From Mobula hypostoma (Eukaryota), in assembly GCF_963921235.1 (NCBI RefSeq), contig NC_086097.1, forward strand, positions 167,898,001-167,962,000: a stretch of DNA of 64,000 bases. The letters are read 5' to 3'. How positions within the stretch are numbered: position 1 is the stretch's first letter; the number at the start of each line of letters is the position of its first letter. Shown here piece by piece: positions 2,377 to 63,620 of this stretch. The notes under the pieces are model-generated. The model was given only the letters and a program-made list of their open reading frames with translations. It was not told the origin of the DNA and did no database searches. The position numbers and the translations under genes were made by a program.

Positions 2377-2677
2377 AACTTTTTCACCCCAAGAGTGGTT
2401 GGAATCTGGAATGTGCAGTCCGAGAAGGAGATGGGTAACGAATATCTAGGCAAGCCCTTGAATCAGCAAGCAAGAGAAGGCTGTTGAGCAAGTTCTGGTA
2501 AATGCAAATAGTATCAATAGGTATTGATTAGTAAGCTTGTGGACACCAAAAATTAGAGTGTGGTCAAAGTTGAGTTTATTGCCTTGTGTGCAATGAAAAA
2601 AAATGACTTCCAGCAGCATCACCAGCATATAATATTACATGAGTAGCACTCACAAGAGAAACATAAATTTAAAATAT

Positions 2678-2870
2678 GCAACACACATAAAAGTTGCTGG
2701 TGAACGCAGCAGGCCAGGCAGCATCCCTAGGAAGAGGTACAGTCGACGTTTCAGGCCAAGACGTCGACTGTACCTCTTCCTAGAGATGCTGTCTGGCCTG
2801 CTGCGTTCACCAGCTACTTTTATGTGCGTTGCTTGAAAGTCCAGCATCTGCAGATTTCCTCATGTTTGCG
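2678..2870. mobile_element. Fold-back insertion of Penelope terminal-repeat family
   Basis: About 72-bp inverted arms (2678-2749 / 2761-2832); flanking direct repeat AATTTAAAATATGCA (2666-2680 / 2871-2885); same sequence as the end of the GIY-YIG element at 57253-57400. Confidence 0.8.
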
Positions 2871-2885
2871 AATTTAAAATATGCA

Positions 2886-3309: not shown

Positions 3310-5460
3310 TAGCTATGACATAGGAAGGAAAAGAGAGGAGGTCGTAAAGAGAGAATTTAAGGAGTTAGATAGAAAGTTGAAAAATAGGACCTCCATGGTA
3401 ACAATATCTGGATTGCTGCCAGTGAGGGCAAGAATAAGATGATTTGGCAGATGAATGCGAGGCTGAGTAATGGGGGCAGGGTTTCAGATTTATGGATCAC
3501 ATGGATCTCTTCTGGGGAAGATGTGGCCTGTCCAGAAGGGGTGACCTACACCTACACCCAAGAGGGGCCAATATCCTTGGGAACAGATTTTCCAGAGCTG
3601 TTGGGGAGAGCTGTTGAACTAACTTAGCAAGGGGATGAGAATCAGAGTGATAGGGCTGACGCTGGGGCAGTTAGTATATAACTAAATGTTGTATGTAATG
3701 AGACTGAGAGGAAGGACAGGCAGATGATAGGGTAAAATTGCAGTCAGTGGGATGTGTTGCAGTGTAAACGTGGAACAAAATTGAAAAGAGTGACAGTTAC
3801 AGTACAGAAGCTGTTATATTTGAATGCACACAGTACAGTATATAAAATAAGGAAGGTGATCTTGTAGCACAGTTAGAGATTGGCAGGCAGACATTGTGGG
3901 TATCATGGTGTCATGGCTGAAAGATGATTGTAGTTGGGAGACATTCAAGGATACACGATCTATTGAAAGGACAGGCAGATTGGAGAGGAGGACGAGTGGC
4001 TCTGCGAGTGAAAAATGAAATCAGATCATTAGAAAGAGATTACATAGGATCAGAGGATAGAGAATCCTTGTGGGTAGAGTAAAGATAAGGGTAAGAAGAC
4101 TCTGATGGGAGTTATTTACAGGCCTCCGAACAGTAGCCAGGGTGTGGTCTACAAATTACAGCAGGAGATAGAAAAAGCATGTAAAAAAAAAAGCATGTTA
4201 CGTTAGTCATGGGGAATTTCAAAATGCAGATAGATTGGGAAAATCAAGTTGATGCTGGATCCCAAGATAAGAGTGCTTTTGGAATGCCCCCTAGGTGGCT
4301 TTTTTGAGCAGCTTGTGGTTGAGTCAACTAAGGGATCAGCAGTTCTGCATTGGGTGCTGTGTGATGAACCAGATATGATTAGGGAGCTGCAGGTAATAGA
4401 ACCCTTGGGAAACTAGTGATCATAATATGGCAGAATTCACCCTGCAAGTTCAGAGGGAGAAGCTAAAGTCAGATGTATCAGTATTACAGTGGAGTAAAGG
4501 GAATTACAGAGGCATGAAAGTTGGCCAAAGTTGATTAGAAGAGGACACCAGCAGGGATGACGGCAGAACAGCAGTGGCTGGAGTTTCTGGGAGCAATTCA
4601 GAAGGCAAGAGGATAGATACATACCAAATAAGAGGATAATTCAACTGTGACTGACAAGAGCAGTCAAAGCCAACATAAAAGCTAAAGAGAGGGCATATAA
4701 TAGAGTAAAAAATAGTGGGAAGTTAGAGGATTAGGAAGCTTTTAATAATCAACAGAAGGCGTCTTTAAAAAAATGCCATAAAGTGGGAAAAGGCAGAATA
4801 CAAAGTTAAGCTAGGCAATAATATTAAAGAGGACCAAAATATTCTTCAGATACATAAAGAGTAAAATAGAGGCAAGAGTAGAGATTGGACCATTGGAATA
4901 TGATGCTGAAGAGATAGCAGCAGACAAACTGAATAACTGTTGAAGACACTAGCAGTATGCTGGAAGTTCGAGAGTGTCAGGGGGCAGAAGTGGGTGAAGT
5001 TGCTATTACTAGGGAGAAGGTGCTTGGGAAACTGAAAGGTCTGAAGGTAGATAAAATCACCTGGACCAGATGGACTACACCCCAGGGTTCTAAAAGAGGT
5101 ACCTGAAGAGACTGTGGAGGCATTAGTAATTAACATCTTTCAAGAAGCTATTGATGGTGGCATAGTTCATTCCACTCTTTAAGAAGGGAGGGAGGCAGAG
5201 GAAATGAAATTATAGGCCAGTTAGGCTGACCTCAGTGATTGGGAAGATGTTGGAGTCGATTGTTTAGGACGAGGTCTCAGGGTACTTGGAGGCACATGAC
5301 AAAATAGACCAAAGTCAGAATGGTTCTTGATTAGTCAGAGTGTGAAAAGTTATGGAGAGAAGGCTGGAGAATTGGGTGGAGAGGGAAATGGATCATAATG
5401 AAATGGCAGAGCAGACGCAATGGACCGAATGGTCTTATTCTGCTCCTATGTCTTATGGAT
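3310..5460 (+). mobile_element. Decayed CR1 LINE (ORF1 esterase end, APE, start of RT, internal deletion, 3' tail)
   Basis: Degenerate esterase, APE (YLNA, YRPPNS) and SPGPDG-type segments; joins directly to CR1 3' tail sequence near 5330. Confidence 0.8.
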
Positions 5461-6015
5461 TGCCAGTGATGTATTGGGCTGCATCCACCATGTTCTGCTG
5501 CTTCTTGTGTTCTTGTGCATTCAAATTGCCTCACCAGTCCATTATGTGACCCATCAGTATACTTACAACAGTACATCTGCAGAAATTTGTAGTGTTCAGT
5601 GAGTCAGGTAATACCACAGTGGATTGGGACACAGCCAGGAAATCATGAGGCAGGATCAGAGGGATCCAAGACATATCGGGCAATCCACATTCAATCCTGA
5701 CTTTGAGCACTGTCTATGTAGACTTCATATATGCTCCCTTTGACTGCGTGAATTTCGTCCATTTTCTTGTGAATTCCCTACCCTATGCATCTCAAAGATG
5801 TGCAGTTTAGAAATTTAATGAACCACATATATTGGCATTAGTATGTGGGTGAGTGTTAGAATCCAGGGGGGATAGATGAGAATGTAGAGGAAAGAAAGGG
5901 TTAGTGCAGGATTGGTGTAAATGGAATTGTAGGTCAGTGTCTCTAATCCAGGCAGTGTTCTGGTAAATCTCCTCTGCACTCTCTCTAATAATAATCCTTC
6001 TTATAGTAAGGCCAC

Positions 6016-6211
6016 TGTTATGTTACTTCTGTTTAAATGTACCATGGGTTAACAGTAAAGAATCATATTCTGGAAGAATTAGAGAACTTTTATTTACAGT
6101 AATAAACACATCTTAACCCAACCATTTGCTGGAACATTCTGGCAATCCCGCGCATGCTCAGTGCTCTGTCCAATCATGTACTGGCACATCATTGCACGTG
6201 ATATCACCACA
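6016..6211 (-). repeat. 3' LTR
   Basis: Direct repeat of 7946-8145 (by eye about 8-10 substitutions plus one 4-bp indel); TG..CA ends. Confidence 0.93.
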
Positions 6212-6224
6212 TCTTCCTTTCCTT
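6212..6224 (-). other. Polypurine tract (AAGGAAAGGAAGA)
   Basis: Pure purine run on the minus strand directly abutting the 3' LTR. Confidence 0.85.
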
Positions 6225-6251
6225 AAAAAGAAAAACAAGTAACAACATTAA

Positions 6252-6410
6252 TCAAAACACATCTATATCAGATAACTGAAACTCTGAAGTTGGCGCTTTC
6301 TTAAAGCCTTTGGGATTCTTTCTTAACACTGCTCCCTCCTCTGTTTGGACCATGTATGATCTGGTCTGTGTCCATGGGTTCCTTTTATCTTGTATCCTCA
6401 GTTTTTCTCC
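6252..6410 (-). pseudogene. Retrotransposon Pol/integrase C-terminal remnant
   Basis: GEKLRIQD...W...TRSYMVQTEEGAVLRKN resembles the G-x2-VR...W...RSY-x-V-x-T-x2-G-x3-RRN tail of Gypsy Pol. Confidence 0.7.
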
Positions 6411-6458
6411 TTGTCCTTCAGACAAATATCTCCTTAGATCAGTCAATTCATGTTCCAC
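6410..6458 (-). pseudogene. RABEP1: Captured Rabaptin-like fragment, part 2 (VEHELTDLRRYLSEGQ)
   Basis: Matches recalled Rabaptin-5 AEREIADLRRRLSEGQ, the direct continuation of part 1. Confidence 0.75.
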
Positions 6459-6585
6459 CTCCATTTGTAATGAAATACGGATCTTCTTTTCTTTATCTAA
6501 TTCATTCATTAACTGTGTAATCTCTTTTTTTATGCTGACACTCCATCATTTAAATAATACTTCTTAATTCCTTCATTTATGCTTT
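6451..6585 (-). pseudogene. SH3KBP1: Captured CIN85/CD2AP-family C-terminal coiled-coil fragment
   Basis: KA*MKELRSII*MMECQHKK(fs)EITQLMNELDKEKKIRISLQMEV versus recalled CIN85 [43 protein letters not shown]; two stops and a +1 A in an A7 run. Confidence 0.8.
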
Positions 6586-6870
6586 CACTGCTTCCTTATA
6601 CTGTGCCCACTGTGAGTGTTCTTGCTCTAGACGGTGATGAAACTGAATCTCATATTCTCTCAGTGTCTCTTTCATCATCGCTTGCATTGAAGCAACCTCC
6701 TCCTGCCATTGCATTTTCACATCATCAATTGCCTCCTGTTTGGTCGTCTCAGACACTGTAGCTACTGCTTTTATATTCCCCATGTCAGCATTTGCCTCCA
6801 TGAGCTGGACTTGCAGTCGAGTTACATCACCTTCTGCCGACTGTTATGCAACTTTCTATCACTTCAGCTC
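6586..6870 (-). pseudogene. RABEP1: Captured Rabaptin-like N-terminal coiled-coil fragment, part 1
   Basis: ELK**KVA*QSAEGDVTRLQVQLMEANADMGNIKAVATVSETTKQEAIDDVKMQWQEEVASMQAMMKETLREYEIQFHHRLEQEHSQWAQYKEAV versus recalled Rabaptin-5 DLKRQNAVLQAAQDDLGHLRTQLWEAQAEMENIKAIATVSENTKQEAIDEVKRQWREEVASLQAVMKETVRDYEHQFHLRLEQERTQWAQYRESA; a RABEP2 paralog is not excluded. Confidence 0.88.
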
Positions 6871-7850
6871 TTGTGTCACTATCCAAGGCAAAAATTCTTT
6901 TCATCAAATTAAGTCTTTCACAGGCAGGGCAGATAAACCCAGAATTGACTGTACATTTTTTGGCACGACCACAAATGAAAGCTTATGCACAATATTTTTG
7001 TGTAATACCTTTGCCACGCATGTCCCTTTAACTGGAATGTCTGCACCTGTATACCCAGTCACGTTTATATTTGTCTGATATAACTTCGGTCTTGGCTTTA
7101 AAGCATTAAACTCAGATTCTGCAAGAACATTTACTTGTGCTCCAGTATCAAGTTTAAACAGATTATTGTTTTGATTCACTTGCAAAGGAATAGTCCAGTC
7201 ATTCTTACTTTTGTTTATTTTCACAAAGCACATCGAGATAAAATTCCTCATGTTCGTCTTCAAGCACAGCATTATTATTATATTTCTTGATGTATTCACG
7301 CTTTTGTTTTACAGCGTTTACATTGCAGTTTTCAACAAAAAGCTCTTCAGCCTGCAACGTCACAGTCTCAGAAACTTTGTAAAGCGCCAAAGCTTTTTCA
7401 AAATTTAAATCTTGCTCTCTCAACAGCCTTTCTCTCAGAGCATTATCTCGAATGCCACAAACAGGTCTATCTTTAATGAGAGAGTCCGTGAGCAATCTAA
7501 ACTCGCATGGTCTACTACGCTTCCTTAACAGTAACATACCGATCAATTGTTTCAGCGGCTCTCTGCGCACGTGAAGAATTTATATCGCTCATACGTTAAG
7601 TTATGCTTAGGTATACAAAATACTTCAAATTTGACCATTATCAACTTTAAATTGAAATTATCACCATCTTCAAAAACAAAATTATTATATACCTCTACTG
7701 CGTCATTCCCGATTACATGGAGCAAAAGCGCAGCTTTGGTAATCGATTGCTGAATGATAAGTACAATTCAAACTGTGGCTTGAATATCCTCCAGTTCTCA
7801 GCTACATTGCCAGTCAGCTGAAGTTTTGGTGGGGGTTGTAAACCTTCCAT
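6871..7850 (-). pseudogene. Decayed gag plus aspartic protease of the LTR element
   Basis: Starts MEGLQPPPKLQLTGNVAENWRIFK at 7850; LIKDRPVCGIRDNALRERLLRE gag motif; FKLDTGAQVNVL protease active site; several frameshifts. Confidence 0.88.
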
Positions 7851-7927
7851 TTTACTGTTTACAGTTCGACCTTTTTTCTTCTCTTTTATTTTCGATTATC
7901 TTCGATTCTCCCGTATTATTTTTCCAG

Positions 7928-7945
7928 ACCCCACGTCTGACACCA
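7928..7945 (-). other. Primer-binding site, tRNA-Leu
   Basis: TGGTGTCAGACGTGGGGT immediately after the 5' LTR; 16/18 match to the complement of the vertebrate tRNA-Leu 3' end (ATCCCACTTCTGACACCA). Confidence 0.85.
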
Positions 7946-8145
7946 TGTTATGCTACTTCTGTTTAAATGTACCGTGGTTTAACAGTAAAGAATCATATTC
8001 TGGAAGAATTAGAGAACTTTTATTTACAGTAATAAACAAACCCGTCTTAACTCAGCCACGTGCTGGAACATTCTGGCAATCCCACGCATGCTCAGTGCTC
8101 TGTCCAATCATGTACTGGCACATCATTGCACGTGATATCACCACA
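7946..8145 (-). repeat. 5' LTR
   Basis: Direct repeat of 6016-6211; followed by the PBS on the minus strand. Confidence 0.93.
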
Positions 8146-9199
8146 GCCACCAGAACTAAACATAATACTCCAAGTGTGATCCAACCAGAGTTTAAGAGAT
8201 GCAAACTTACTTTGCAGTTCTTGACCTTGGTCTTTTGACTAATGATGATTAACACACCATACACCTTCTAAACTACTCTTATCAACTTGCATGGTAACTT
8301 TGAGGGATCTATGGACGTGAACCTCAAAATCCCACTGTTCCTTAACATTATAAGAATCCTGCCTTTATCCTTGTACTCTGCTGTCAATTTTGATCTTCCA
8401 AAGTGTATTATTTCACACTTTTCTAGATTGAACTTTTAGGAACTGGTTTTTATTGTGACATGTACCGTACATTTCACATGTCATCCTTGTAGATTATTTC
8501 ATTACCATAGTACATAGAGGTCGTTCAAAGGAAAACAATAAAGGAATGCAGAATAAAGTGTTACAGTTACAGAGAAAGTGCAGTGCAGGCAGACAAAAGA
8601 ATCAAAGGTTCATTTTATTGTCGGTGTATGTACAATACAACTCTGATATTTGTCTTGTTCAGATAGCCAGGAAGACCATGGCAGTTGATGAAAGAAAATA
8701 TATCGAAGCCTCCCACCCGGCATGAAAAAGTAAAGAAACAAAACTTGCAGACCCCAAAATCAACCCCCCCCCACAGAAAAAACAGTGAAGATAACCATCG
8801 CGACCTACTCACCCACAGAAAAAACAGCAACAACAATCCCTGACACACTTATTTGCAGAAAAGAACAGTGACAGTAGTATCAAACTCCTCAACCCCACCC
8901 CCTTACATACAAAATATTAATGGATCACCCACCCAGCAATCAGCCAATAAAGTGCAAAGCCATGGTGGGGTAGAGTGTGAGGTCAAAAGTCCATCTTATT
9001 GTACTGAGGAACCATTCAATAGTCTTATGACAGTCGAATAGATGATGTCCTTGAGGCTGGTGGTAGCACTTTCAGGCTTCTGTGTCTTCTACCTGATAGG
9101 AGGGAGGATAGAAGAGAGAATGTCCTGTGTGGGTGGGGCCATTGATTATGCTGGCTGCTTTTCCAAGGCAGTGAGAAATGGAGGGGTTCCTGGTCTCCA

Positions 9200-12055: not shown

Positions 12056-13309
12056 AAGAGATTAAAGATTATCGTAGTGGAGAAGAGGGGTGGAAATATT
12101 CAGGAAGGCAATAACAGAGATTGGCAGCTTTGGTTTTAGAAGACAGTGGAATTAAAATCAGTCTGCAGAGAATCCTTGTTTCAATTATGTCATTAATTTA
12201 TAGGGATAGGGGTCATTGTAGAGACAAGAGGACAGAAGGACAGTTGAGAGATAAGTAAACAAAAATGATTAAACATCTCTTAAGCAAGAGACAGTATAGG
12301 TTAGAGGTGATTTGTGAGTAAGACTTCCTGCATGTTAGGCCCAGGCTGCAGATTGTTGGGTGGCCTCCTGTTTATGGTGGCTACAATGGTTAGTGTTGGA
12401 GCAGTCAGTCTTATAGGTGAGAGAGGGGTGAGAGTTTCATCAGCCAATGAGCTGAGTCAAGAACAGAACCTAGTGGAAATATCCTGAGTGATGTTTAGTC
12501 ACAGTCTCCTCTTGTGATCAAACATGACAGTGTTGAGCAGAACCATATAGCCTGTGCCAGAGAAGTCATTTTAGCAGAAAATATTATCACTAAAATTAGT
12601 TCTTTGTCTCTAAATATTTGTAATACACTTATATGAAAAACTGCCCTTGGAAGGAGCATTTTCTCAGCCTGTTATTGAGAAACGTTGATCTCTGCAAAGC
12701 ACGTTAATGCTGATAACTCAATTGCAAATGTTATTTCTTTCAAAAATAATTCAGGAATCAAATGCTCGCTGCTATTTCTGCCTGCCTGAACAACTTTTTG
12801 TTTCATTTGTTCATTCAAATCTGTTTCTACAGAAGTTCAAAGAAGTACAACCCTTTAATGAGAAAATCCCCTTCATCTCATTCTTTAAGTTAGCAACCCC
12901 TCTTCCTGAAGTCATGATCTGTAGATCTAAAGTCTTCAACAAGTAAATGTTTCCATCCAGTGTGCACCTTGTGACAGACATTTAGAAATTTTATATTATG
13001 GTGAGCACACGTCTCCCATTTATTTTGGGTTAAGAAGGGAGATCACATTCTTCTAAACTCCAAGGACTGGAGGCTTTGCACTCCTGTAACGATTCCTCAG
13101 ATTACTGCGGTGCAGTTTATGGTGAAGGAATGAGGGTAGATGGTGGGGCCAGGGTGGAATCAGAGGGCAGTGGGAGTTGCAGTCAAAGATAAGATACCTG
13201 TTGTGTCGAGTTTCAAAGTGCTTGGCGGTTTTAATTGTCTTATCTTGTTTCCAGTCATATGGCTGCCAACTGATGCATAAATTCAAGCTGATTGCAAGCT
13301 GTGACAAAC

Positions 13310-13605
13310 TATGTTGAGTGCATATGTAAATATATCTTCAGAATTTGGCTGCAGATTTTGTATATTTGGGAGTAGTATACATCTGCCTCTGTATATGTAC
13401 ATACATCTGTGCATGCATATGCAAGTGTGTGAGCAAGCATGCACACACATCCTTGTAAGTAAGCACATGTATATATGTCCTCATACATCTGCCTATTGAT
13501 ATGGCTTTGCATCCTGCATGTCTCTATAAGTAGGTCTCTGTCTGTGTTTGTATATGTGTCCATATGCATGCATGTGTCTCTGCATATGCCCATGTTTTGT
13601 GTGTA
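13310..13605. repeat. Degenerate alternating purine-pyrimidine (TG/CA/TA) tract
   Basis: RY-alternating low complexity; similar tracts at 14780-15045, 27850-28170 and 29095-29320. Confidence 0.7.
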
Positions 13606-13607
13606 AA

Positions 13608-14403
13608 CATTGGATTCCAGTTAATTAAGCCATTGGTTAATCAGGGCAGCTGCATATTTTGGAGAACTCTTAAAGCACAAAAACTAGTCAAGAAAATAGT
13701 ACGGATTCCCTTCATTTATTGGGACACTGTGTCATTAACTGAGACGGGAAACTTGGCAAACAGTTTCTAACTAGCATCAGTTGTGTGCACTTGTGTGGTC
13801 GTTGGACATGACACTGTACTTAGAGTGATCAGGTTTTAAATAGTGGCGGTGTTTGTGTTCAAAATGCAGTGATCTTTGTCACTGATGGTTAACAAGAAAT
13901 AAGCAGTAAGACAATTCAAAACTGCTTTGCTCACTGTGGTTTCAAGCATTCAGGCTTGGAAAGACCAAAAATGACTGGGAGTGAAAATGAAACAATTTCA
14001 CTACTTCAACAAGTTAGGGATTAATCATTTGAAGGTATCAACAATCATCTTGAATGTTTTAGAGGATACAGTTGTCAAAATCATTGTATGAAGGCAGTCC
14101 ATTATCTGCACTAGGTACCTACACTGATTTGTTCAATTACAGTCAGTCAAAAGAATGCAGCAGCATACACTGGATGAAATCCTCCATCATTAACTAGTAG
14201 CAACTAATACACAGTTTTATAATACTGTAGCAGCATTGGTAGTGTTCTAATTTGTTCTGGATTTTACTTACTCTGTTAAGTGGTAGTTTGTCTTTTTCAT
14301 ACCTTTTTAATGATTTCCAAGAAACTTTCACTGATTGGGGCAGCTGCTTAATTGGGCCAAAATGTACTGGTCCCAATGTGCCCCAATTAACCAGAATCCA
14401 TTG
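13608..14403 (+). mobile_element. pogo/Tigger-like internally deleted DNA transposon
   Basis: TIRs CATTGGATTCCAGTTAATT / AATTAACCAGAATCCATTG followed by TA; internal TIQNCFAHCGFK (Tigger DDE C-terminal motif); partial inverted copy at about 21310-21592. Confidence 0.7.
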
Positions 14404-14874
14404 TATATACATGTGGAAATATACCGATCAATGTGTATGTGTATGTGAGGGAGTTAGATATGGCCCTTGTGGCTATGGGGGTCAGGGGGTATGGAGGGAA
14501 GGCTGGGGCGGGGTTCTGAGTTGGATGATCAGCCATGATCATAATAAATGGTGGTGCAGGCTCGAAGGGCCAAATGGCCTACTCCTGCACCTATTTTCTA
14601 TGTTTCTATGTTTCTATTACATGCATACATTTGAACCTTCATGCATGCATTCCGGTATACATATAAGGGAAAATCTGCAGATGCTGGAAATCCAAGCAAC
14701 ACACACAAAATGCTGGAGGAACTCAGCAGGCCAGGCAGCATCTGTGGAAAAGAATAGATGCTAAAGGGTCTTGGCCCTGCATGCCTATGCATTTGCACAC
14801 ATTAAAGCTTTGTGTATGTGTGCTTATGAAATGTGTGTATATATGCATGCATGTTTGTGTGTTCGTGTATGTCT

Positions 14875-15142
14875 GTGTGTGTGTGAGAGAGAGAGATATT
14901 GGATAAACTATAGGGTATTTTGCCTGTTAATGTGATAAAGGTCTTTAAATATCTATATTGGAATCTCCCCCTCCCATTCAATGTGTATGTGTGCATCTGT
15001 GTGTGTGTGTGTGTGTTTGTGTGTGAGAGAGAGAGAAAGAGAGAAATATTGTATTAACTAAAGAGCATTTTGTCAATTAATGGGATAAAGGTCTTTAAAT
15101 CTCTAAATTGGAATCTCCCCTCACTCCCCTATTCAATGTGTA
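14875..15142. repeat. Diverged ~130-bp tandem duplication
   Basis: Two copies of (GT)n(GA)n...GATAAAGGTCTTTAAAT...TTGGAATCTCCCC...ATTCAATGTGTA. Confidence 0.8.
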
Positions 15143-15271
15143 AGTAAATTTAAACCCAGCACAGAATGAATGAGAACACAAGGAAATCTGCAGATGCTGG
15201 AATTTCAAGCAACACACAGAAAGGTTGCTGGTGAACGCAGCAGGCCAGGCAGCATCTATAGGAAGAGGTAC

Positions 15272-15307
15272 AGTCGACGTTTCGGGCCGAGACCCTTCGT
15301 CAGGACT
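15272..15307 (-). ncRNA. Minimal type-I hammerhead ribozyme motif (intact core)
   Basis: AGUC-CUGACGA-A-GGGU-CUCG-GCCC-GAAA-C-GUC^GACU: helix I AGUC/GACU, conserved CUGANGA and GAAA boxes, helix II, helix III reduced to palindromic ACGU, GUC cleavage triplet. Confidence 0.8.
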
Positions 15308-15487
15308 AACTGAAGGGTCTGGAAGTCCTAACAAAGAGTCTCAGCCCGAAACTTCAACTGTACCTCTTCTTATAGATGCTGCCTGGCCTGCTGCGTTCAC
15401 CAGCAATTGTTGTGTGTGTTGCACAGAATCAACTAGAATAGGAGGGAAAAAGGGCTTTCAAATCTCTTACTATCTCTTCTTTCAGTT

Positions 15488-15523
15488 AGTCCTGACGAAG
15501 GGTCTCGGCCCAAAACGTCGACT
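15488..15523 (+). ncRNA. Minimal hammerhead motif, GAAA>AAAA mutant
   Basis: Identical to 15272-15307 except for the conserved G12 changed to A at a CpG. Confidence 0.7.
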
Positions 15524-16581
15524 GTACCTCTTCCTAGAGATGCTGCCTGGCCTGCTGCGTTCACCAGCAATTTTTATGTGTGTTGCTTGAAATTCCAGCA
15601 TCTGCAGATTTCCTCATGTTTGTGTTTTTGAATTCTCTCATTATTTGTGCTGATGCAGGAGTGGAGCTGCATGGTTTGTGCTGTTTATTTAACTGCATCT
15701 GTTCCTATGTGGAGACATTTGATGGCAACCAAACACTTGGGTCCAAACATGACTGAACAAAGAACAGCATCACCCCTGCAATGTGCAGTTGGAGAGAAAA
15801 ATGGCCCCAGGAGGAGGGGTGAGTGGGGGGGGGGTGATGGGATGGCTTCGCTTATTATTTGAGCTTCATTGTATCATCAACAGGAAACCACCCTCACACA
15901 ATCTCCAGTGCAAAGGTTCTGTGTCAGACCACAATGCTAAAGTAGTTGTTATTATTCAGCTTCATAAATGCAATGGAAAGGGGTAACTGTAATGTTAACT
16001 CTGAGAAATCGTCACCATTATGTAACCTGATGAGTGAATGGTTAGTGGCTGACACTACGCAGCCACATACTGGATGAAGCAAAATATTAGCCGGATGGCA
16101 TACACTGGTTACCATTTCCCAGGGTTGTTTTCTTTGGGGCAGTGGAAGCTGAGGGGAAACCTGATACAAGTTCATAAAATTATGAGAGGCATCTTTTTCC
16201 CAGGGTCAAAATGCTTAACACCGGAGTGTGTGCATTTAAGGTGAGGGGGGGAACGTTGAAAGGTGATTCGCAGGGCAGAGAGTGGTGAAGTGCACTGGCA
16301 GGGGTGGTGATAAAGGTGTGGAAGAGACTCTTAGACGGGCACATGAATGTGCAGGTAGTTTTGTGCCTTGGCACTGTATTGCTGCAACAAAGCAAGGAAT
16401 TTCACTGCATGTAAGACAGGGATGATGAACCTGATACTCATTATGATTCTGATATGGACCACATGCAGGCTTAGGAGGAATTCCTTTAGCCGGAGGGTGG
16501 TGTCCATTGCCACAGACGGTGGTTGGCAGGCTCTTGATTATTAAGGTTGTCAAAGATTATGGAAAGAAGGCAGGAGAATGG

Positions 16582-16738
16582 TAAACACAAAATAATCTGC
16601 AGATGCTGAGGTCAAAGCAACACACAACACGCTGGAGGAACTCAGCAGGTCGGGCAGCATCCGTGGAAAAGATCGGTCGACCGATCTTTTCCATGGATGC
16701 TGCCTGACCTGTTGAGTTCCTCTAGCATGTTGTGAGTG
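16582..16738. mobile_element. Loop-less fold-back Penelope-repeat insertion
   Basis: Near-perfect palindrome centred on GTC|GAC (16676-16681); 14-bp TSD AGGCAGGAGAATGG (16568-16581 / 16739-16752); inserted in a CR1 tail. Confidence 0.85.
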
Positions 16739-17779
16739 AGGCAGGAGAATGGGGTTGAAGGGAAACTAAATCAGCCATGATCAAATGGCAGAGCAGACTT
16801 AATGGGCCAAATGGCCTAATTCTTCTCCTGGTCTTAAGTAGGGAACATTAGCTTTATTAGTTTGGCAGAACAGTGTGGGGTGAAAGCCCTGGCCCTGTTC
16901 CTGTGCTGTACTGTCCTATGCTTTGCTACTCTATCAGCAAACTGGCTCCAGCTGCTGCTTGCTCAAGCACCAAAGCAGAACTAGAGCCGCCAAAGAACAT
17001 CCTTCAAAACTGGCGGGGGGGGGAACTACAGAAGCTGGAAGTCTGAAATGAAAACAAAAACACTGGAAATGCTGAACAGCTCAGACAGTATCCATGGAAG
17101 GGGAGACAATGAATGAGCAGAGGAGGTGGGACCAGGGATGGTTAGAACAAAGGGAATGTTTCTGATCGGCTGAGACCAAATGACTTACTAAGGCTACATA
17201 CAAAATTCTGGAGGAACTCAGCAGGTCAGGCAGCATCCATGTTGTTGATGGTAAAACTGTGAAAACCAGCTGACCAGGGTACATAACTGAATGAAAAACA
17301 AAATAAACAAAAATGCCAAATGGCCAGTCCTGATACGTAAATAAAAACAGAGTGAGTTATCGAAAACTGGTAAGCCTAGATGGAAGATGACATAAGATGG
17401 TGCTTTAACATATGACTTTTGTCTGTTTCCTTAGTATATAACATCTCTTTGTCACAGCCAGACTGCTGGTTTAATTCACCCCACCCCTGCCACTCCTCAC
17501 CAAAAGAAATGCTCACCTTGAACTGCTTGGCTCTTCTTTTAGCCCAAGCCTCACATTCCTCATCAATTAGTTGAGCACCACTAGCGCTCCCATGCACAGA
17601 ACTCTCTGTATTCAGTGCCCCATCCTGAGCTGCACTATCCCTCACTCTCTGCATGATGGTACGATACCCATTAAAACATCAGGTACTGCAGTCTACAACC
17701 CTGCCAGTTGACTGGAGAAGGCCAAACATTGTCTCGAGCCCACCTGATCAGTGGTTGGAGAGAGCTTAGACTAATTTGG

Positions 17780-18420
17780 GGAGGGAGGAGAAGATGGCGG
17801 CGCGACACAGGCGTGCGGCCGTTCCGAATGATATCGTATGTGTTAACTAGGATGCCGTGCACAATCCTGATTTGATGGAGACAACCATAAGAAGCACGGA
17901 GGAACACCTGGAGAAACTTCTGAAATGCCCGCTTCGCTGCTGCTGCTATTGTGCGATTGAGAATCTCCAGAGGGGAGGGCCCCAAATCCTCGGCTTTACC
18001 TATTGCCTGTTGCCGGGGCCGGGGTCGAAGCGCTCGGCAGAGATGGTGCTCGGTGTTAGAGAGCTGGTCGGAGGCTTGAAGTTTTCAGACAAACTCGGAG
18101 TCAGACTGTGGTCGGATGCTTCCAGGATACTGCATCAGCAAGTTTGTGGCGCTGGAGGTTCACCGTCTGCATGAGATGATGGGACTTTTGAGAGACTTTG
18201 AGACTTTTTACCATGCCCATGGTTTGTTCTTTATCAAATTACGGTATTGCTTTGCACTGTTGTAACTATATGTTACAATTATGTGGTTTTTGTCAGTTTT
18301 CAGTCGATTTGTCATGTGTTTCTGTGATATCATTCTGAAGAAACATTGTATCATTTCTCAATGCGTGCATTACTAGGTGACAATAAAAGAGGACTGCATG
18401 TCCTCATAATCTAATCTAAA
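17780..18420 (+). mobile_element. Probable non-autonomous retroposon (CpG-rich head, LINE-like tail)
   Basis: Head AAGATGGCGG (YY1-type motif, 17791-17800), CpG-rich body, AATAAA and (AATCT)n end. Confidence 0.55.
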
Positions 18421-24656: not shown

Positions 24657-26283
24657 CAGTGCCTCTAAGAAGTATTCACTCCCCTTGGAGGTTTTCATGT
24701 TTTATTGTATTACATTGAATCATAGTGGATTTAATTTGGCTTTTTTGACACTGATCAACAGAAAAAGACCCTTTTGTGTCAAAGTGAAAACAGATCTCTA
24801 CAAAGTGATCTAAATTAATGGCAAATAGAAAACACAAAATAATTAACTGCATAAGTATACAGCCCCTTCAAGTCAGTGTTTAGTCGATGCACCTTTGGCA
24901 GCAATTACAGCTTGAGTCTGTGTGGATAGGCCTCTGTCAGCTTTGCAAATCTGGGCACTGCAATTTTTCCCCATTCTTCTTTACAAAACTGCTCCAGCTC
25001 TGTCAGATAGCACGGTCGTCGTAGTGAACAGCCCTTTTCAAGTCCAGCCACAAATTCTCAATTAGACTGAAGTCTGGACTCTGATTTGGCCACTCCAGGG
25101 CATTAACTTTGTTGTTTTTAAGCCATTCCTGTGTAGCTTTGGCTTTATGTTTGTGGTCATTGCCTTGCTGGAAAACACATCTTCTCCCAAGTCGCAGTTC
25201 TCTTGCAGACTCCAGGATTTCCCTGTATTTTGCTGCATTCATCTTACCTTTTATCTTCACAAGCCTTCCAGGGCCTGCTGCAGTAAAGCATCCTACAGCA
25301 TGATGCAGCCACTGCCATGCTTCACAGGAGGGATAGCATGTTTTTGATAATGTGCGGTGTTTGGCTTAAGCCAAACATAGCATTCAGTCTGATGGCCAAG
25401 AAGTTTGATTTTGGTTTCATCAGACCATAGAACCTTCTTCCAGCTGACTTCAAAGTCTCCCACATGCCTTCTGGCAAACTCTAGCTGAGATTTCATGTGA
25501 GTTTGTTTTCAACAGTGGCTTTCTCTTTGCCACTATCCCATAAAGCTATGACCAGTGAATCACGCAGGCAACAGTTGTTGTATGAAGTGTCTCTCCCACC
25601 TCGGCTGTTAGAGCTTGTAACTCCTCCAGAGCTGTCTTAGGTCTTTCGGTGGCCTCCCTCACTAATCCCCTTCTTGCACGGTCACTCAGTTTTTGAGGAC
25701 AGCCTGCTCCCGGCAGATTAACAGCTGTACCATATTCTTTCCATTTCCTGATGATTGGCTTAACTGGATATTCAAGGGATATTCAGAGGCTTGGAGGTTT
25801 TCTTGCATCCATCTCCTAACGTACTTTTCAATAACCTTTTTGCGAAGTTGTTTGTAGTGTTCTTTTGTCTTCGTGGTGTAGTTTTTGCCAGGATACTGAC
25901 TCACCAGAAGTTGGACTTCCAGATACACGTGTATTTTTACTACAATCAGTTGAAATGCCTTGACTGCACACAGCTCTCCAAAAAGAGATCACAATTTAAC
26001 TAATTATGTGACTTTTAAACCAATTGGCTGCACCAGTGATGATTTGGTGTGTCATAATAAAGGGAGTGAATACTTCTGCAATCAATTATTTTGTGTTTTA
26101 TATTTGTAATTAATTTAGATCACTTTGTAGAGATCTGTTTTCACTTTGACATGAAAGAATCTTTTTTTTCTGTTGATCAGTGTCAAAAAAGCTAACTTAA
26201 TTTGACCTTGATTTAATGTTGTAAAACAATAAAACATGAAAACTTCCAAGGGGCGGTGTGGGTGAGTACTTTTATAGGCACTG
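24657..26283 (-). mobile_element. Full-length Tc1-like DNA transposon with long (~210 bp) TIRs
   Basis: CAGTGCCT...AGGCACTG ends; TA TSD (24655-24656 / 26284-26285); long inverted repeats. Confidence 0.93.
24873..25874 (-). pseudogene. Tc1 transposase pseudogene
   Basis: (T)KTKEHYKQLRKKVIEK, VLWSDETK, PVKHGSGCIML, FQQGNDHKH (second catalytic D changed to G), WPNQSPDFSLIENLW, GASTKH*; start codon mutated; frameshifts. Confidence 0.9.
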
Positions 26284-28820: not shown

Positions 28821-29095
28821 ATCACAGCTCGGAGTGTTTCAGAATTCAATTCTGGTGCCGTCTATAAGGAGCTTGTACGTTCTCCACATGAACCAGGTGA
28901 TTTTCCTGCAGGTTCCTCCCACAGTCCAAAGACGTACCAGCTGGATATTGTAAATTGCGTTCACCAGCAATTTTTATGTGTGTTGATTGTAAATTGCCTT
29001 TTGTGTTAATAGGCGGCTTTGCCGGGTAGTGTGGCTCGTTGGGCTGAAAGGGCCTGTTCTGCCCTCCATCACTAAATAAATAAATAAATTTACTG

Positions 29096-47069: not shown

Positions 47070-50000
47070 TCACAAAGTGTAACACCTCACACTTGTCTGC
47101 ACTGAATTCCATCTGCCATTTTTCTAGCTGGTCCAGATCCCACTGCAAGCTTTGATAGTCTTCTTCGCTGTCCACTACACCCCAATCTTGGTGTCATCTG
47201 CAAATCTGGTGACCCAGTTTACCACATTATCATTTAGATTGTTGATGTAGATCACAAACAGGAATGGACCCAGCACCAGTCCCTGTGGCACACCACAAAC
47301 CACAGGCCTCCAGTCAGAGAGACAACTATCTATAACTGCTGTCTGACTTCTTCTGCGAAGCCAATATTCAATCCAAATTAATCCAACTACCTCATCTGAA
47401 TACCAAGTGACTGAACCTTCTTGACCAATGTCCCTTGCAGTACCTTGTCAAATGCCTTGCTAAAGTCCATGTAAACAACATCCACTGCCTTACCTTCATC
47501 AACTTTCCTGGTAATTTCCTCAAAATACTCTATAAGATTCGTTAGACACAACCTGCCACAGACAAAGCCATGTTGTCTCTTCCTAGTCAGTCTCTGTCTA
47601 TCCAAGTACTTATATATCCGGTCCCTTAGAATATTTCTAAAAACTTTCTCACTTTTGTTGCCAAGTTCACTGCCTATAATTTTCTTGGCTTATTCTTAGA
47701 GCCTTTCTTATACAACAGAACAGCATTAGCTATCCTCCAGTCCACTGGCACCTCACCTGTGCGTAAAGATGTTTTAAATATCTCAGCGATGGACCCTGCA
47801 ATTTCTGCACTAGGCTCTCACAGGGTCCAAGGGAGCACATTGTCAGGCCCTAGGGATTCATCTACCCTAATTTTCCTCAAGACAGCAGACACCTCCTCCT
47901 CTGTAAACTGTATAGGGTCCATGACCTCGCTACTGCTTTGCCTCACTTCTATAGACTCTGTGTCCGTCTCCCGAGTAAATACAGATGCAAAAATTCCATA
48001 TAAGATCTCCCCACTTTTTTCAGCTCCATGTATAGATTACCACTCTGATCTTCCAGACAACCAATGTTGCCCTTTGCCATCCTTTTGCTCTTTATATGCT
48101 GTATCAGTAGAAGACCTTAGGATTCTCCTTCACCTTGCTTGCTAGAGCAATCTCATGTCCACTTTTAGCCCTCCTGATTTCATTCTTAACAGTTCTCTTG
48201 CAGTTCTTATACTCCTCAAGTATCTCATTTGTTCCTGCCTGTCTGTACCTGCTATGCACCTCCTCCTTTTTCTTAACCACGGTCTTAGTATCTCTCAAAA
48301 ACCAAGATTCCCTCAACCTGTTATCCTTGCCTTTTATTCTGATAGGAACGTGCAGACTCTGTACTCTCAAAATTTCTCTTCTGACAGTGTCCCACTTACT
48401 AAGTTCATCTTTGCCAGAAAAGCAACCTGTCCCGATCTACACTTGATACCACCAATTTAAAATCTCAACCCACAGACCAGACCTATCCTTTTCCATAATT
48501 ACCTTGAAACTAATGGAATTATGATCACTAGATGTAAAGTGTTCCCCTACATAAACCTCTGTCACTTGCTCTGTCTCATTCCCTAATCTAGTATTGCACT
48601 CTCTCTAGTTGGAACTTCTATGTACTGATTAAGGAAACTGTCCTGAACACATTTGACAAACACTTTTCCATCCAGCCCTTTTACAGTATGGGAGTCCCAG
48701 TCACTATGTGGAAAGTTAAAATCACCTACTGCCACTACCTTACAGTTTGCAATCTCTCTATAAAGTTGCACCTCTACTTTTGGTTGGTCTATAATATAAT
48801 CCCATTAATGTGGCCATACTTTTCTTATTCCTCAGTTCTACCCATAAAGGCTCACTAGACAAGCTCTCCAGTCTGTATGACTGAGCACTTGTGACATTTG
48901 AAAATGTGACATTTTCCCTGACTGGTAATGCCACACCTCCTCCTCTATCACATCTAAAACAATAGAACCCCAAAACATTGAGCTGCCTGTCCTGCCGCTC
49001 CTGCATCCAAGACTCACTAATGGCCACAAAGTCATAATTTCATGTGTTGATCAATGCCCTAAGCTCACCTGCCTTTCCTACAATATCCTTTGCATTGTAA
49101 TATCCGCAGCTCAGAACATTAGTCCCACCATGCTCAACCTTTTGATTCCTAACTTTGTGTGTAACAACACCTTTCTCCACAATCACTCTCCATTGTTTTC
49201 GCACTCTTGTTCCCATCCCCCTGCATCTCTAATTTAAACCGTCCCGTGCAGCACGAGCAAATCTTCCCACTAGGGTATTAGACTCCTCCCAGTTCAGGTG
49301 CAAACCATCCCTTCTGTGCAGGTCCCACCTTCCCTGGAAGAGAGCCCAATGATCCAAAAATCTGAAGCCCTTCCTCCTGCACCAACTCCTTAGCCACATG
49401 TTAAATTGTATGATCTTCCTATTTCTATTCTCACTAGCTTGTGGCCCGGGTAGCAATTCTGAGATCACAACCCTGGAGGTCTTGTCCTTTAACTTAACAT
49501 TTAACTCTCTGAACTTACTTTGCAGGACCTTGTCACCCCTCCAATCCATGTCTTTGGTACCATCGTATTGTAGACCATGACTTCTGGCTGCCTACCCTCC
49601 CACTTAAGAATACTGTGGACTTGATCTGAGATGTCCCCATCTCTGGCACCCAGGAGGCAACAAACCACCCAGGAATCTTGTTCTCATCCACAGAACCTGC
49701 TATCTGCTCCCCTAACTAACAAATTGTTTTATCACCACTGCTCACCTCTTCTCCCCTCTTTCCTTCTGAGTCACAGAGCCAGACCCAGTGCCAGAGACCT
49801 GGCCACTGTGGCTTTCCACTGCTAGGTCCCCCACCCCATCCCAACAGTACCCAGAGTGGTATACCTGCTGTTGAGGAGAACAATCACAGGGATACTTTGC
49901 ACTTGCTGCCTATCCTCTTTCCCCTTGCTAATGTCACCCAATTACCTGTGTCCTGCACCTTGGTTGTAACTACCTCCCTGTATGTCCTATCAATCAACCC

Positions 50001-57192: not shown

Positions 57193-57252
57193 CCCGTACA
57201 TATCTTCCAAACTGGCCTGACACTTTCAACCATCTATGGACATATATGATCA

Positions 57253-58053
57253 ACACACATCAAAGTTGCTGGTGGACGCAGCAGGCCAGGCAACATCTCT
57301 AGGAAGAGGTACAGTCGACGTTTTGGGCCGAGACCCTTCGTCAGGACTAACTGAAAGAAGAGCTAGTAAGAGATTTGAAAGTGGGAGGGGGAGGGGGGAG
57401 ATCCGAAATGATAGGAGAAGACAGGACGGGGAGGGATGGAGCCAAGAGCTGGACAGGTGATTGGCAAAAGGGATATGAGAGGATCATGGGACAGGAGGCC
57501 TAGGGAGAAAGAAAAGGGGGAGGGGGAAAAACCCCAGAGGATGGGCAAGGGGTATAGTCAGAGGGACAGAGGGAGAAAAAGGAGAGAGAGAAAAAGAATG
57601 CGTGTATATAAATAAATAACGGATGGGATACGAGGGGGAGGTGGGGCATTAGCAGAAGTTTGAGAAGTCAGTGTTCATGCCATCAGGTCGGAGGCTACAC
57701 AGACAGAATATAAGGTGTTGTTCCTCCAACCTGAGTGTGGCTTCATCTTTACAGTTGAGGAGGCCATGGATAGACATATCAGAATGGAAATGTGATGTGG
57801 AATTAAAATGTGTGGCCACTGGGAGATCCTGCTTTCTCTGGCGGACAGAGCGTAGGTGTTCAGCAAAGCGGTCTCCCAGTCTGCGTCAGGTCCCGCCAAT
57901 ATATAGAAGGCCACATCAGGAGCATCGGACGCAGTATATCACCCCAGCCGACTCAGAGGTGAAGTGTCGCCTCACCTGGAAGGACTGTCTGCGGCCCTGA
58001 ATGGTGGTAAGGGAGGAAGTGTAAGGGCATGTGTAGCACTTGTTCCGCTTACA
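57253..58053 (-). mobile_element. 5'-truncated Penelope-like element: GIY-YIG endonuclease remnant, 3' UTR, terminal repeat with hammerhead (57313-57348)
   Basis: GVIYCVRCS*CGLLYIGGT*RRLGDRFAEHLRS...PVATHFN...LEEQHLIF...PDGMN; 11-bp TSD ATATATGATCA (57242-57252 / 58054-58064). Confidence 0.92.
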
Positions 58054-58789
58054 ATATATGATCAGTATATTATGTCAATATAACTGACATATATGATCAG
58101 TTCCCTCAATCTTATGCCCTCTAGTTTATTGTTTGTCTTCTCAATCTCCTTACATGTTTTAAGGACAGTGATGAGTCAGATGGATTTTTATAACAATCAC
58201 TCCAGTAGTTACACAGCCAACTTTATTCAGACGGTGTTTATTCCAGGTTCATTTAGTTGATTGAATTTATGTTCCCCAGCTGCCGTGGTGGGATTTGAAC
58301 TTGTGCCCCAGAATAGTTATCTAAACCTCCAGTTGCTGGTCCAATAACTTAACCACTCTGCTGCTAGACCGGGAATTTAGACATGTCAGCAGACTGACAG
58401 AAAACAAACTGCTGGAGGCGCTCAGCAGGTCAAGCAGCATTTGTCGGGTGTGTGTCTGTGGGGGGAGAGGGAGTGTCGACATTTTGGGTCAGGACCCTGC
58501 CATCAGGACTGATGACTGACAACTGATTCCAACTCAGCATTGAAGTCAAGTCATAGAATCATACAGATTTACAGCGCAAGAGGAGGCCATTCATTATATT
58601 CTCATTCTCTCTCTCTCTCTCTCCCCCATCTATCTATCTTTCTCTATCTCTATTTAATCTATCTCTCTCTCTTTCTTTCTCTTTTCTACCCATAAGGAGC
58701 TCCTTAAAACTCATTACTCATTCTTGTGTCCAAGCCCTTGTCTCCACATGAACTTGTGAGTCAGTGTCAAGCTTTGTTTAACTGTGGTT

Positions 58790-62487: not shown

Positions 62488-63620
62488 AGCTTTTTCAGAT
62501 ATACAAGAAGTAAAAGAGAGGTGAGAGTGGGTATTGGGCCACTGGAGAATGACGTTGGAGATCTAATAATGGGGGATAAAGAAACAGCAGACGGACTGAA
62601 TAAGTATTTTGCGTCAGTCTTCACTGTGAAAGACACAGTGGCAGAATGCTAAAAATGCAAGAGTGTCAGGAGGCAGAAGTGAGGGCAATTGCTATTACTA
62701 AGGAGAAGGTGCTTGGAAAGCTGAGAGTCTGGAGGTAGATAAGTCACCTGGAACAGATGGACTACAACCCAGAGTTCTGAAAGAGGTAGCTAAAGAGATT
62801 GTGGAGGCATTAGTAATGATAGTTCAAGAATCACTAGATTCTGGCATGGTTCCGGAGGACTGGAAAATTGCAAATATCATTCCACTCTTTAAGAAGGAAA
62901 AGAGCCAGAAGGAAAGAAACTGTAACTATAAGCCAGTTGGCCTGACTTCAGCAGTTGGGAAGAAGTTGGAGTCCATTATTAAGGATGAGGTTTTGGGGTA
63001 CATGAAATCACATGATAATATAGGCCAAAATCAGCATGGTTTCTTTAAAGGGAGATATTGCCTGACAAATCTGTTGGAATTTTTTGAGGAAGTAAGAGGC
63101 AGGATAGACAAAAGAGAGTCGGTGAATCTTGTTTACTTGGATTTTCAGAAGGCCTTTGACAAGTTGCCACACATGAGGCTGCTTAACACGATAAGAGTCC
63201 ATGGTATTACAGGAAGGATATTATAATAGAAGATTGGCTAACTGGCAGGAGGCAGAGTGGGAATACAGGGGTCCTTTTTAGTTGGCTGTCAGTGATTAGT
63301 GTTATTCCACAGAGTTCTGAATTCGGATTGCTTCTTTTCATGTTATATATAAATGATCGGATGACAGATTTTGTGGTCAAGTTTGCAGACAATACAAAGA
63401 TAGGTAGTGTTGAGAAAACAAGGAGTCTGCAGAAGGATTTAGACAGATCAGGAGAATGGGCAGAGAAGTGGCAGATGGAATATAGTGTTGGGAAGTGTAT
63501 GGTCATGCACTTTTGTAGAAGGATAATGTTATAGACTATTTTCTAAATGTGAAGAAAATTCAAAAATCAGAGGTGCAAAGTGACGTGGAAGGCCTTATGC
63601 AGTATTCCCTAACTTGCAGA
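62488..63620 (+). mobile_element. CR1 RT fragment
   Basis: VPEDWKIANIIPLFKK, QHGFFKGRYCLTNLLEFF, YLDFQKAFDK, KFADNTK. Confidence 0.92.

What the first reader, a model, noticed from the sequence alone, without database searches (positions are those of the whole stretch)
15272..15307. Intact minimal hammerhead ribozyme hidden in the abundant SINE-like repeat
Seen: the minus strand reads AGUC CUGACGA A GGGUCUCGGCCC GAAA C GUC^GACU, giving a complete type-I core with 4-bp helix I, helix II, and no real helix III (palindromic ACGU). Predicted cleavage lies between 15276 and 15275. Established: Penelope-like elements carry such minimal hammerheads in their terminal repeats, and these are thought to cleave as dimers. 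The same repeat ends the GIY-YIG element at 57253-58053, linking the family to Penelope. Any transcript crossing an intact copy could be self-cleaved.
Basis: partly seen in the sequence, partly recalled or inferred. Interest (0 to 1): 0.7.

Follow-up and report, generated by a model that had tools for sequence, protein, structure and literature searches.

The report
Penelope-element minimal hammerhead, ray genome
The 36 bases are a real copy of the small self-cutting RNA motif that Penelope-like jumping genes are already known to carry, but this copy sits in a dead, shortened insertion whose mirror-image neighbour would pair with it and most likely keep it from folding.

Summary
Observation exact. 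Minus strand 15307-15272 is a complete minimal type-I hammerhead: full core, extra A after position 9, palindromic ACGU instead of helix III, cut 15276/15275. It is the only descriptor hit in 64 kb; 0 of 300 shuffles give one. The repeat is no SINE. It is the 5'-truncated 3' end (pLTR plus tail) of a Penelope-like element. A TSD-bounded copy at 57253-58085 joins the motif to a GIY-YIG domain 88% identical to a Mobula RT-endonuclease protein. The motif class covaries across 70 clusters from other hosts and is described (Cervera and De la Pena 2014). 'Any transcript crossing it could be cleaved' is not supported here. No same-strand partner lies nearby, and the inverted copy just upstream drops helix I/II pairing to about 0. 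Published dimer activity is low or protein-dependent. The scan noted this family many times before in this genome. One lead: a fold-back insertion at 16568-16752 is centred exactly on the cut site. New member of a known kind.

The parts
15272..15307 (-). Minimal type-I hammerhead motif, intact core; predicted cut between 15276 and 15275
15175..15314 (-). Copy 1: 5'-truncated pLTR end of the Penelope-like element (starts 7 nt before helix I), 66 nt from cut to main 3' end, then about 35 nt of tail
15312..15323 (+). Inversion junction with a short piece resembling the start of helix II, overlapping copy 1 by a 3-nt microhomology (probable template switch; inferred)
   Evidence: read from the sequence
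15324..15422 (+). Copy 2: inverted pLTR copy without tail, same insertion as copy 1 (both carry the same A downstream of the motif); core decayed (6 of 36 changed, 5 of them G>A)
15159..15176 (+). Left copy of a probable decayed target-site duplication (15 of 18 identical to 15421-15438; 9 bp exact)
15421..15438 (+). Right copy of the probable target-site duplication
15455..15620 (+). Copy 3: separate 5'-truncated insertion with tail; hammerhead at 15488-15523 carries G12A
57253..58085 (-). 5'-truncated Penelope-like element between perfect 14-bp TSDs (57239-57252, 58086-58099): CX4CxxC linker, GIY-YIG domain broken by two stop codons (57646-58053), about 300-nt 3' region, hammerhead with G12A (57313-57348), no tail
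16568..16752 (.). Fold-back insertion of a related subfamily between 14-bp TSDs; its two arms meet between 16678 and 16679, the position homologous to the cut site
2666..2885 (.). Fold-back insertion of the same subfamily as the finding, 15-bp TSD; the tailed arm starts 3-5 nt before the cut site

Best explanation
The motif is the minimal hammerhead that a Neptune-type Penelope-like retrotransposon of a ray carries in its terminal repeat. In the master element it is a selected ribozyme fold. Two copies on a tandem transcript pair their ACGU palindromes into a shared helix III and swap helix-I strands, probably with help from the element's protein, and cut weakly after GUC (inferred from published work on other families; not shown here). 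This genomic copy is a passenger. Reverse transcription started about 66 nt (or about 105 nt with the tail) 3' of the cut site, ran through the uncut motif and stopped 7 nt past helix I; an inverted second copy was laid beside it. The copy is dead, has no partner on its strand, and is intact only because its five CpGs have not yet decayed. In a read-through RNA it would be locked in a long hairpin with its inverted neighbour.
For: Shown: exact core and chance model. The motif lies 301 nt after the stop of a GIY-YIG frame in a TSD-bounded element. The frame is 88% identical to Mobula P0001 and 61% to Rhincodon P0006, which has RT and GIY-YIG hits. The same order, endonuclease then motif on one strand, holds in 5 of 120 fetched loci. 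Pairs left free by the search pattern covary across 70 clusters: I2 48/70 vs 33.1 shuffled, I3 35 vs 24.2, II3 47 vs 27.8, II4 42 vs 25.6, II5 38 vs 28.2. In four public runs 85-92% of laid depth has the intact G12, and contigs of a second subfamily part from the reference at both edges of the motif (344 and 432 loose ends at 57311 and 57348 in run X1). With upstream sequence, helix probabilities fall to about 0 and forcing the fold costs 48.5-67.9 kcal/mol. Inverted copy, tail and TSD match the published PLE anatomy.
Against: No cleavage was measured, and the contigs cannot show RNA ends (table 6: none). Pair I4 does not covary across clusters (21/70 vs 24.7). The shuffle control ignores relatedness, and only 5 of 120 loci were tied to a PLE frame. 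No full-length element or 5' pLTR was seen. Neptune assignment rests on one linker motif, which Naiad and (reduced) Nematis also have; no RT tree was built. The TSD of the finding's insertion has 3 mismatches in 18. Equilibrium folding ignores kinetics, RNA-binding proteins and ADAR editing. A transcript starting inside the junction (at or below 15316) would fold helices I and II (p 0.86-0.95).
Confidence: 0.85

Rival explanations
1. One reading: this and other dispersed intact copies cut host transcripts that run across them, pairing in trans with the many other family RNAs.
For: The family is huge (94,734 contig records laid in run X1) and is present in two runs guessed to be RNA (9,036 and 8,459 records). 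Most depth has an intact G12. The isolated motif folds helices I and II.
Against: No same-strand partner nearby; sequestering hairpin. The modelled active dimer (-16.3 kcal/mol, secondary structure only) is less stable than two misfolded monomers (-28.2) or an inactive duplex (-36.5). Published: monomer inactive, dimer low; 1 of 9 Xenopus dimers cleaved; the Anolis motif cleaves only with protein and no RNA-seq read ends at its cut site were found. No host exon was found among the 121 longer frames scanned, so no overlapping gene is known.
Confidence: 0.06
2. The motif keeps the hammerhead shape for another job in the element (a protein-binding or template-folding signal, or a parasite of the element), and cleavage is incidental even in master copies.
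For: Catalytic mutants did not affect insertion in vitro and uncut RNA was the main template. Naiad elements thrive without the motif. In 4 of 5 two-armed insertions here at least one arm begins upstream of the cut site, so its template was uncut.
Against: Catalytic core letters are kept while helices covary (the search pattern fixed the core, so this is partly built in). G12 loss (at most 15% of depth) is rarer than the tolerated C11.1->U change at the same CpG (39-58%). The Anolis motif does cleave with protein.
Confidence: 0.2
3. The short repeat is a non-autonomous element in its own right (SINE or non-LTR retrozyme) mobilised in trans, not merely truncated ends.
For: Most window copies are short and start within about 40 nt of the motif. 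Summed contig depth is about twice as high over the last 100 nt as over the endonuclease frame (a poor measure). Retrozymes derive from pLTRs and occur in one chondrichthyan.
Against: No fixed 5' end, no tandem unit, no tRNA gene, no poly(A). Sequence upstream of the motif in copy 3 is 96% identical to the coding element over 131 nt.
Confidence: 0.08
4. Chance resemblance to a hammerhead.
For: No Rfam hammerhead hit; ordinary folding energy.
Against: 0 of 300 shuffles; expected position in a PLE. Rfam at gathering score also found nothing in 9 of 9 comparison loci, three of them PLE-linked.
Confidence: 0.01

Closest known systems
[quoted passage not shown]
   Same: Type I; full core; unpaired nucleotide between 9 and 10.1; G10.1-C11.1; palindromic 15.2-16.2 with no loop 3; 4-5-bp helix I; mostly single dispersed copies; pairs on opposite strands close together are described there too.
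   Different: Helix II is 4 bp, against 7-8 bp in the Schistosoma families described. Cartilaginous fish are not named in the parts read. The copy number looks larger than the 4,000-9,000 quoted for coelacanth and Xenopus, but I could not count it in a genome.
Hammerhead of Poseidon element PAc, Anolis carolinensis (Frangieh et al. 2024, PMC11167929; parts 1-2 of 4 read)
   Same: pLTR motif, optional 30-40-nt tail from two RT start sites, uncut RNA used as template.
   Different: PAc is Penelope/Poseidon clade; the ray element has a CX4CxxC linker that Poseidon lacks. PAc cleavage was measured; here it was not.
Inverted pLTR plus tail insertions of EN+ PLEs (Arkhipova et al. 2013, PMC3846280, passages; Craig et al. 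2021, PMC8557442, passages)
   Same: Head-to-head inverted copy, tail on one arm only, 8-10-bp TSDs there and 9-18-bp here, palindromes at the junction.
   Different: The insertions here are 150-260-bp stumps with no coding sequence.
Animal non-LTR retrozymes (Li et al. 2026, bioRxiv 10.64898/2026.07.22.740005; parts 1-3 of 5 read, supplements closed)
   Same: Type-I hammerhead derived from PLE pLTRs; reported from one chondrichthyan.
   Different: Retrozymes are head-to-tail tandem arrays; here the copies are single or inverted.

Membership tests
PLE minimal type-I hammerhead | Core CUGANGA, GAAA, NUH in type-I order | tested here: met
PLE minimal type-I hammerhead | Unpaired nucleotide between 9 and 10.1; G10.1-C11.1 pair | tested here: met
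   A at 15296; G15295-C15284; features listed
PLE minimal type-I hammerhead | No helix III loop; palindromic 15.1-16.1 allowing a dimer | tested here: met
   ACGU at 15280-15277; a nested dimer can be drawn
PLE minimal type-I hammerhead | Helices I (4-5 bp) and II | tested here: met
   Helix I 4 WC + U.G; helix II 4 bp, shorter than the 7-8 bp of Schistosoma families
PLE minimal type-I hammerhead | Located in the terminal repeat downstream of a GIY-YIG frame | tested here: met
   301 nt after the stop in the element at 57253-58085
PLE minimal type-I hammerhead | Covariation in helices | tested here: inconclusive
   Met across 70 outside clusters for I2, I3, II3-II5, not I4; within the ray family only one-sided changes among 14 aligned window copies
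PLE minimal type-I hammerhead | Self-cleavage as a dimer | not testable with these tools
   Contigs only
EN+ Penelope-like element | Single ORF with RT and C-terminal GIY-YIG domain | tested here: inconclusive
   Window holds only the endonuclease part (PF01541 below cut-off); close homologues hold RT-thumb-EN in one frame (P0006: RVT_1 and GIY-YIG)
EN+ Penelope-like element | 5' truncation, inverted pLTR, optional 30-40-nt tail, TSD | tested here: met
EN+ Penelope-like element | Two direct pLTRs flanking a full ORF | not testable with these tools
   No genome held; no full-length copy in the window
Neptune clade | CX2-5CxxC linker before a CCHH-type GIY-YIG domain at the C-terminus | tested here: met
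   C-x4-CxxC at the start of the frame, two Cys between the GIY and YIG equivalents; criteria
Neptune clade | Placement in an RT phylogeny | not tested
   No reference set of named PLE RTs was fetched
SINE | tRNA-derived head, fixed 5' end, simple-repeat or poly(A) tail | tested here: not met
   ARAGORN 0 genes (insensitive to decayed heads); variable 5' ends; continuity with the coding element
Non-LTR retrozyme | At least two consecutive head-to-tail units with complete motifs | tested here: not met
   No such array in 13000-18000; 1 intact motif in the window

The most novel reading that the evidence does not exclude
Ray genomes keep a fossil record of ribozyme action. A fraction of insertions were copied from RNA already cut by the hammerhead, so reverse transcriptase ran off at the 5'-OH end and folded back there, as in the insertion at 16568-16752 whose arms meet exactly at the cut site. 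With more than 10^4-10^5 copies, counting junctions would give the first in vivo measure of PLE hammerhead cleavage. A companion idea: intact copies survive in host transcripts mainly when an inverted neighbour locks them, which would make the inverted-pLTR insertion a built-in safety catch.
Probability: 0.12. Interest if true: 0.58.

Novelty: new member of a known kind. Interest (0 to 1): 0.2.

Why it matters
As it stands: a correct catch of a described motif in a lineage where I found no paper describing it (searches; a new manta and devil ray genome preprint has no occurrence of 'Penelope', 'PLE' or 'ribozyme'). What PLE hammerheads do in vivo is an open question. A very large, young family with intact and G12A copies side by side is good material for it: junction statistics, intron orientation bias and cyclic-phosphate sequencing can all be done in rays. 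This single copy adds little.

Tried and rejected
Own genome: none held, so no copy count, no full-length element and no genome-wide junction test. Rfam: no hammerhead family; the microRNA-precursor rows only reflect the hairpin between copies 1 and 2. Viral contigs: 3 pattern hits (L001-L003); two sit in GC-rich sequence without a helix I and I left all three out of the covariation count. A conserved inhibitory switch: in the monomer G5-A6-C7-G8 pairs with C15.2-G-U-C17 (4 kcal/mol), but position 7 is A or G in 39 of 70 outside clusters, so it is not a conserved feature. A host gene over the motif: the Rabaptin hit at 6577-6843(-) looked like an exon that would put the motif in a sense intron, but it is an intronless fragment inside an LTR element. 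Selection on dead copies: none visible; core changes are mostly CpG-type. Copy 2's excess of core changes is not significant (p=0.17; that table used 4 of 58 outside changes typed by eye, while the script counted 7 of 65, which is weaker still). Lunse et al. 2017 is not held; only its title was seen in reference lists.

Full report
1. Observation. In hammerhead numbering (recalled convention, also used): 2.4-2.1 AGUC, core C3-A9 CUGACGA, one extra A, helix II GGGU/GCCC with loop CUCG, G12-A14 and A15.1, C15.2-G16.2 with no loop, U16.1, C17 (15276), then GACU. A descriptor scan of both strands finds this one hit in 64 kb. 0 of 300 block-wise dinucleotide shuffles give a hit with helices of 4 or more pairs, and 8 of 300 with 3-pair helices. 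Two near-identical copies carry G12A. Rfam has no matching family at gathering score, also not for 9 of 9 comparison loci, so its silence says little. Folding energy is ordinary (z=-1.37).

2. The repeat. BLAST of the finding's copy gives 19 segments in the window, itself included, in at least two subfamilies. They are not SINEs. Copy 3 continues 96% identical for 131 nt into the element at 57253-58085, which lies between perfect 14-bp duplications. That element encodes a CX4CxxC linker and a GIY-YIG domain broken by two stops. All 11 homologue hits are 276-469 aa proteins, ten named from Mobula, Hypanus or Rhincodon, the best at 88%; P0006 shows RT and GIY-YIG in one frame. By the criteria in Craig et al. 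(passages) a C-terminal endonuclease with this linker fits Neptune; I built no tree. The host is therefore a ray-like fish (inference). The motif starts 301 nt after the stop and the cut lies 66 nt before the main 3' end; some copies add a 37-39-nt tail, as described for PLEs.

3. The locus. Copy 1 (minus, 15175-15314, with tail) and copy 2 (plus, 15324-15422, no tail) lie head to head, share a private base, and are flanked by a probable decayed duplication (15 of 18 identical). This is the inverted-pLTR-plus-tail insertion of Arkhipova et al. (passages). Four more two-armed insertions with duplications of 9-15 bp lie at 2.7, 16.6, 27.2 and 55.9 kb. Copy 3 (plus, 15455-15620) is a separate insertion.

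4. Is the fold selected? Within the window's ray copies the changes are mostly C>T and G>A at the motif's five CpGs, with no two-sided change, as expected of dead copies. Between subfamilies the motif is better kept than the 66 nt after it: 24 of 163 versus 145 of 396 non-CpG positions differ over 7 copies (the copies are related, so the p-value there overstates it). Laying four public runs on 57200-58100 placed 94,734 of 20.6 million, 70,643 of 14.4 million, 9,036 of 1.10 million and 8,459 of 1.26 million contig records. At G12, 85-92% of depth reads the intact base. At the neighbouring C11.1 of the same CpG, 39-58% reads U, which keeps a G.U pair. Contigs part from the reference at both edges of the motif (57311 and 57348). 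Depth here is a poor measure, and the asymmetry may be one founder variant. In 70 clusters, pairs not fixed by the pattern pair more often than after shuffling partners: I2 48 vs 33.1, I3 35 vs 24.2, II3 47 vs 27.8, II4 42 vs 25.6, II5 38 vs 28.2; I4-I6 do not. Five of 120 loci show a PLE frame upstream on the same strand. So the motif class is a selected hammerhead fold; the control ignores relatedness.

5. Would this copy cut? Alone it folds helices I and II (p 0.66-1.0) but also pairs G5-G8 with C15.2-C17, closing the core at a cost of 4 kcal/mol to reopen. The dimer with shared ACGU and swapped helix I can be drawn but scores -16.3 kcal/mol against -28.2 for two monomers (tertiary contacts not counted). 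In context it is worse: a minus-strand RNA begun at 15330 or further up has helix probabilities of 0.002 or less, and forcing the fold costs 48.5 kcal/mol with copy 2 and 67.9 with copy 3. No same-strand intact partner exists in the window. Published activity is low: monomer none, dimer low (Cervera and De la Pena); 1 of 9 Xenopus dimers (Li et al.); the Anolis motif only with protein, not needed for insertion, and with no RNA-seq ends at the site (Frangieh et al.). No host exon was found among 121 of the longer frames scanned (4, 117 of the 126 listed); short exons would be missed.

6. Mechanism, shown and inferred. Shown: sequence, position in a PLE end, insertion anatomy, class-level covariation, predicted sequestration. 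Inferred: dimer or protein-assisted cleavage of tandem master transcripts; internal RT start giving the tail; copying of an uncut template here, since both arms include sequence 5' of the cut.

7. Lead. The insertion at 16568-16752 is a palindrome whose arms meet between 16678 and 16679, the position homologous to the cut. It is 1 of 5 two-armed insertions. An earlier scan note (e1-7790562) reports another insertion starting at the cut; I did not check it. The site is itself a 6-bp palindrome, which could drive fold-back with no cleavage, and that copy lacks the core. I give the cleavage reading 0.12.

8. Novelty. All tested defining features of the PLE minimal hammerhead are met; activity was not testable. 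Searches found no paper on this ray family, but the library lacks most subscription papers and repeat databases, Lunse et al. 2017 is not held, and the supplements of Cervera 2014 (not opened) and Li 2026 (closed) may list cartilaginous fish. The scan's own look-up gave 31 notes with 'hammerhead' in this genome; most of the 8 shown describe this kind of motif. Verdict: new member of a known kind; interest 0.2.

Noticed in passing
window 6016-8145 (-): A 2.1-kb LTR element (repeats 6016-6211 and 7946-8145, 93-97% alike, starting TGTT) with broken gag-protease remains fused to an intronless RABEP1 fragment (residues 60-163, 85% to the Mobula protein). Similar chimeras are annotated in Hemitrygon (P0030) and Hypanus (P0043), so it is a spread family with captured host cargo. 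The scan noted it before (e1-7791549).
   Followed up: partly
window 16568-16752: Fold-back insertion centred exactly on the position homologous to the hammerhead cut site, with 14-bp TSDs.
   Followed up: partly
window 15324-15359 (+): Copy 2 has 5 G>A and 1 G>T in the 36-nt motif while its twin has none. Two G>A are outside CpG. On the minus strand all five become G.U pairs, so the hairpin with copy 1 stays nearly perfect. Could be chance CpG decay or deamination of single-stranded DNA; not significant.
   Followed up: partly
window 28947-28997: A 27-bp scrap of the element's extreme 3' end between perfect 12-bp duplications.
   Followed up: no
window 57325 (motif position 11.1): 39-58% of laid depth reads U at 11.1 while at most 15% loses G12 at the same CpG: a subfamily variant, or selection on master copies.
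   Followed up: partly
window 14900-15130 and 15430-15470: Host sequence around the insertion is a decayed repeat of about 150 bp with TG/AG runs. Copy 3's 5' junction resembles the host unit, suggesting microhomology joining.
   Followed up: no
window 25003-25365 (-); 47175-47689 (-); 49229-49591 (-); 62702-63226 (+): Fragments of other mobile elements: DDE_3 transposase, RT pieces, a GDSL-like domain, and an RT piece.
   Followed up: no
L006, L113 and related loci: One cluster of 32 near-identical minimal hammerheads among the metagenome hits; L113 holds two on opposite strands.
   Followed up: no
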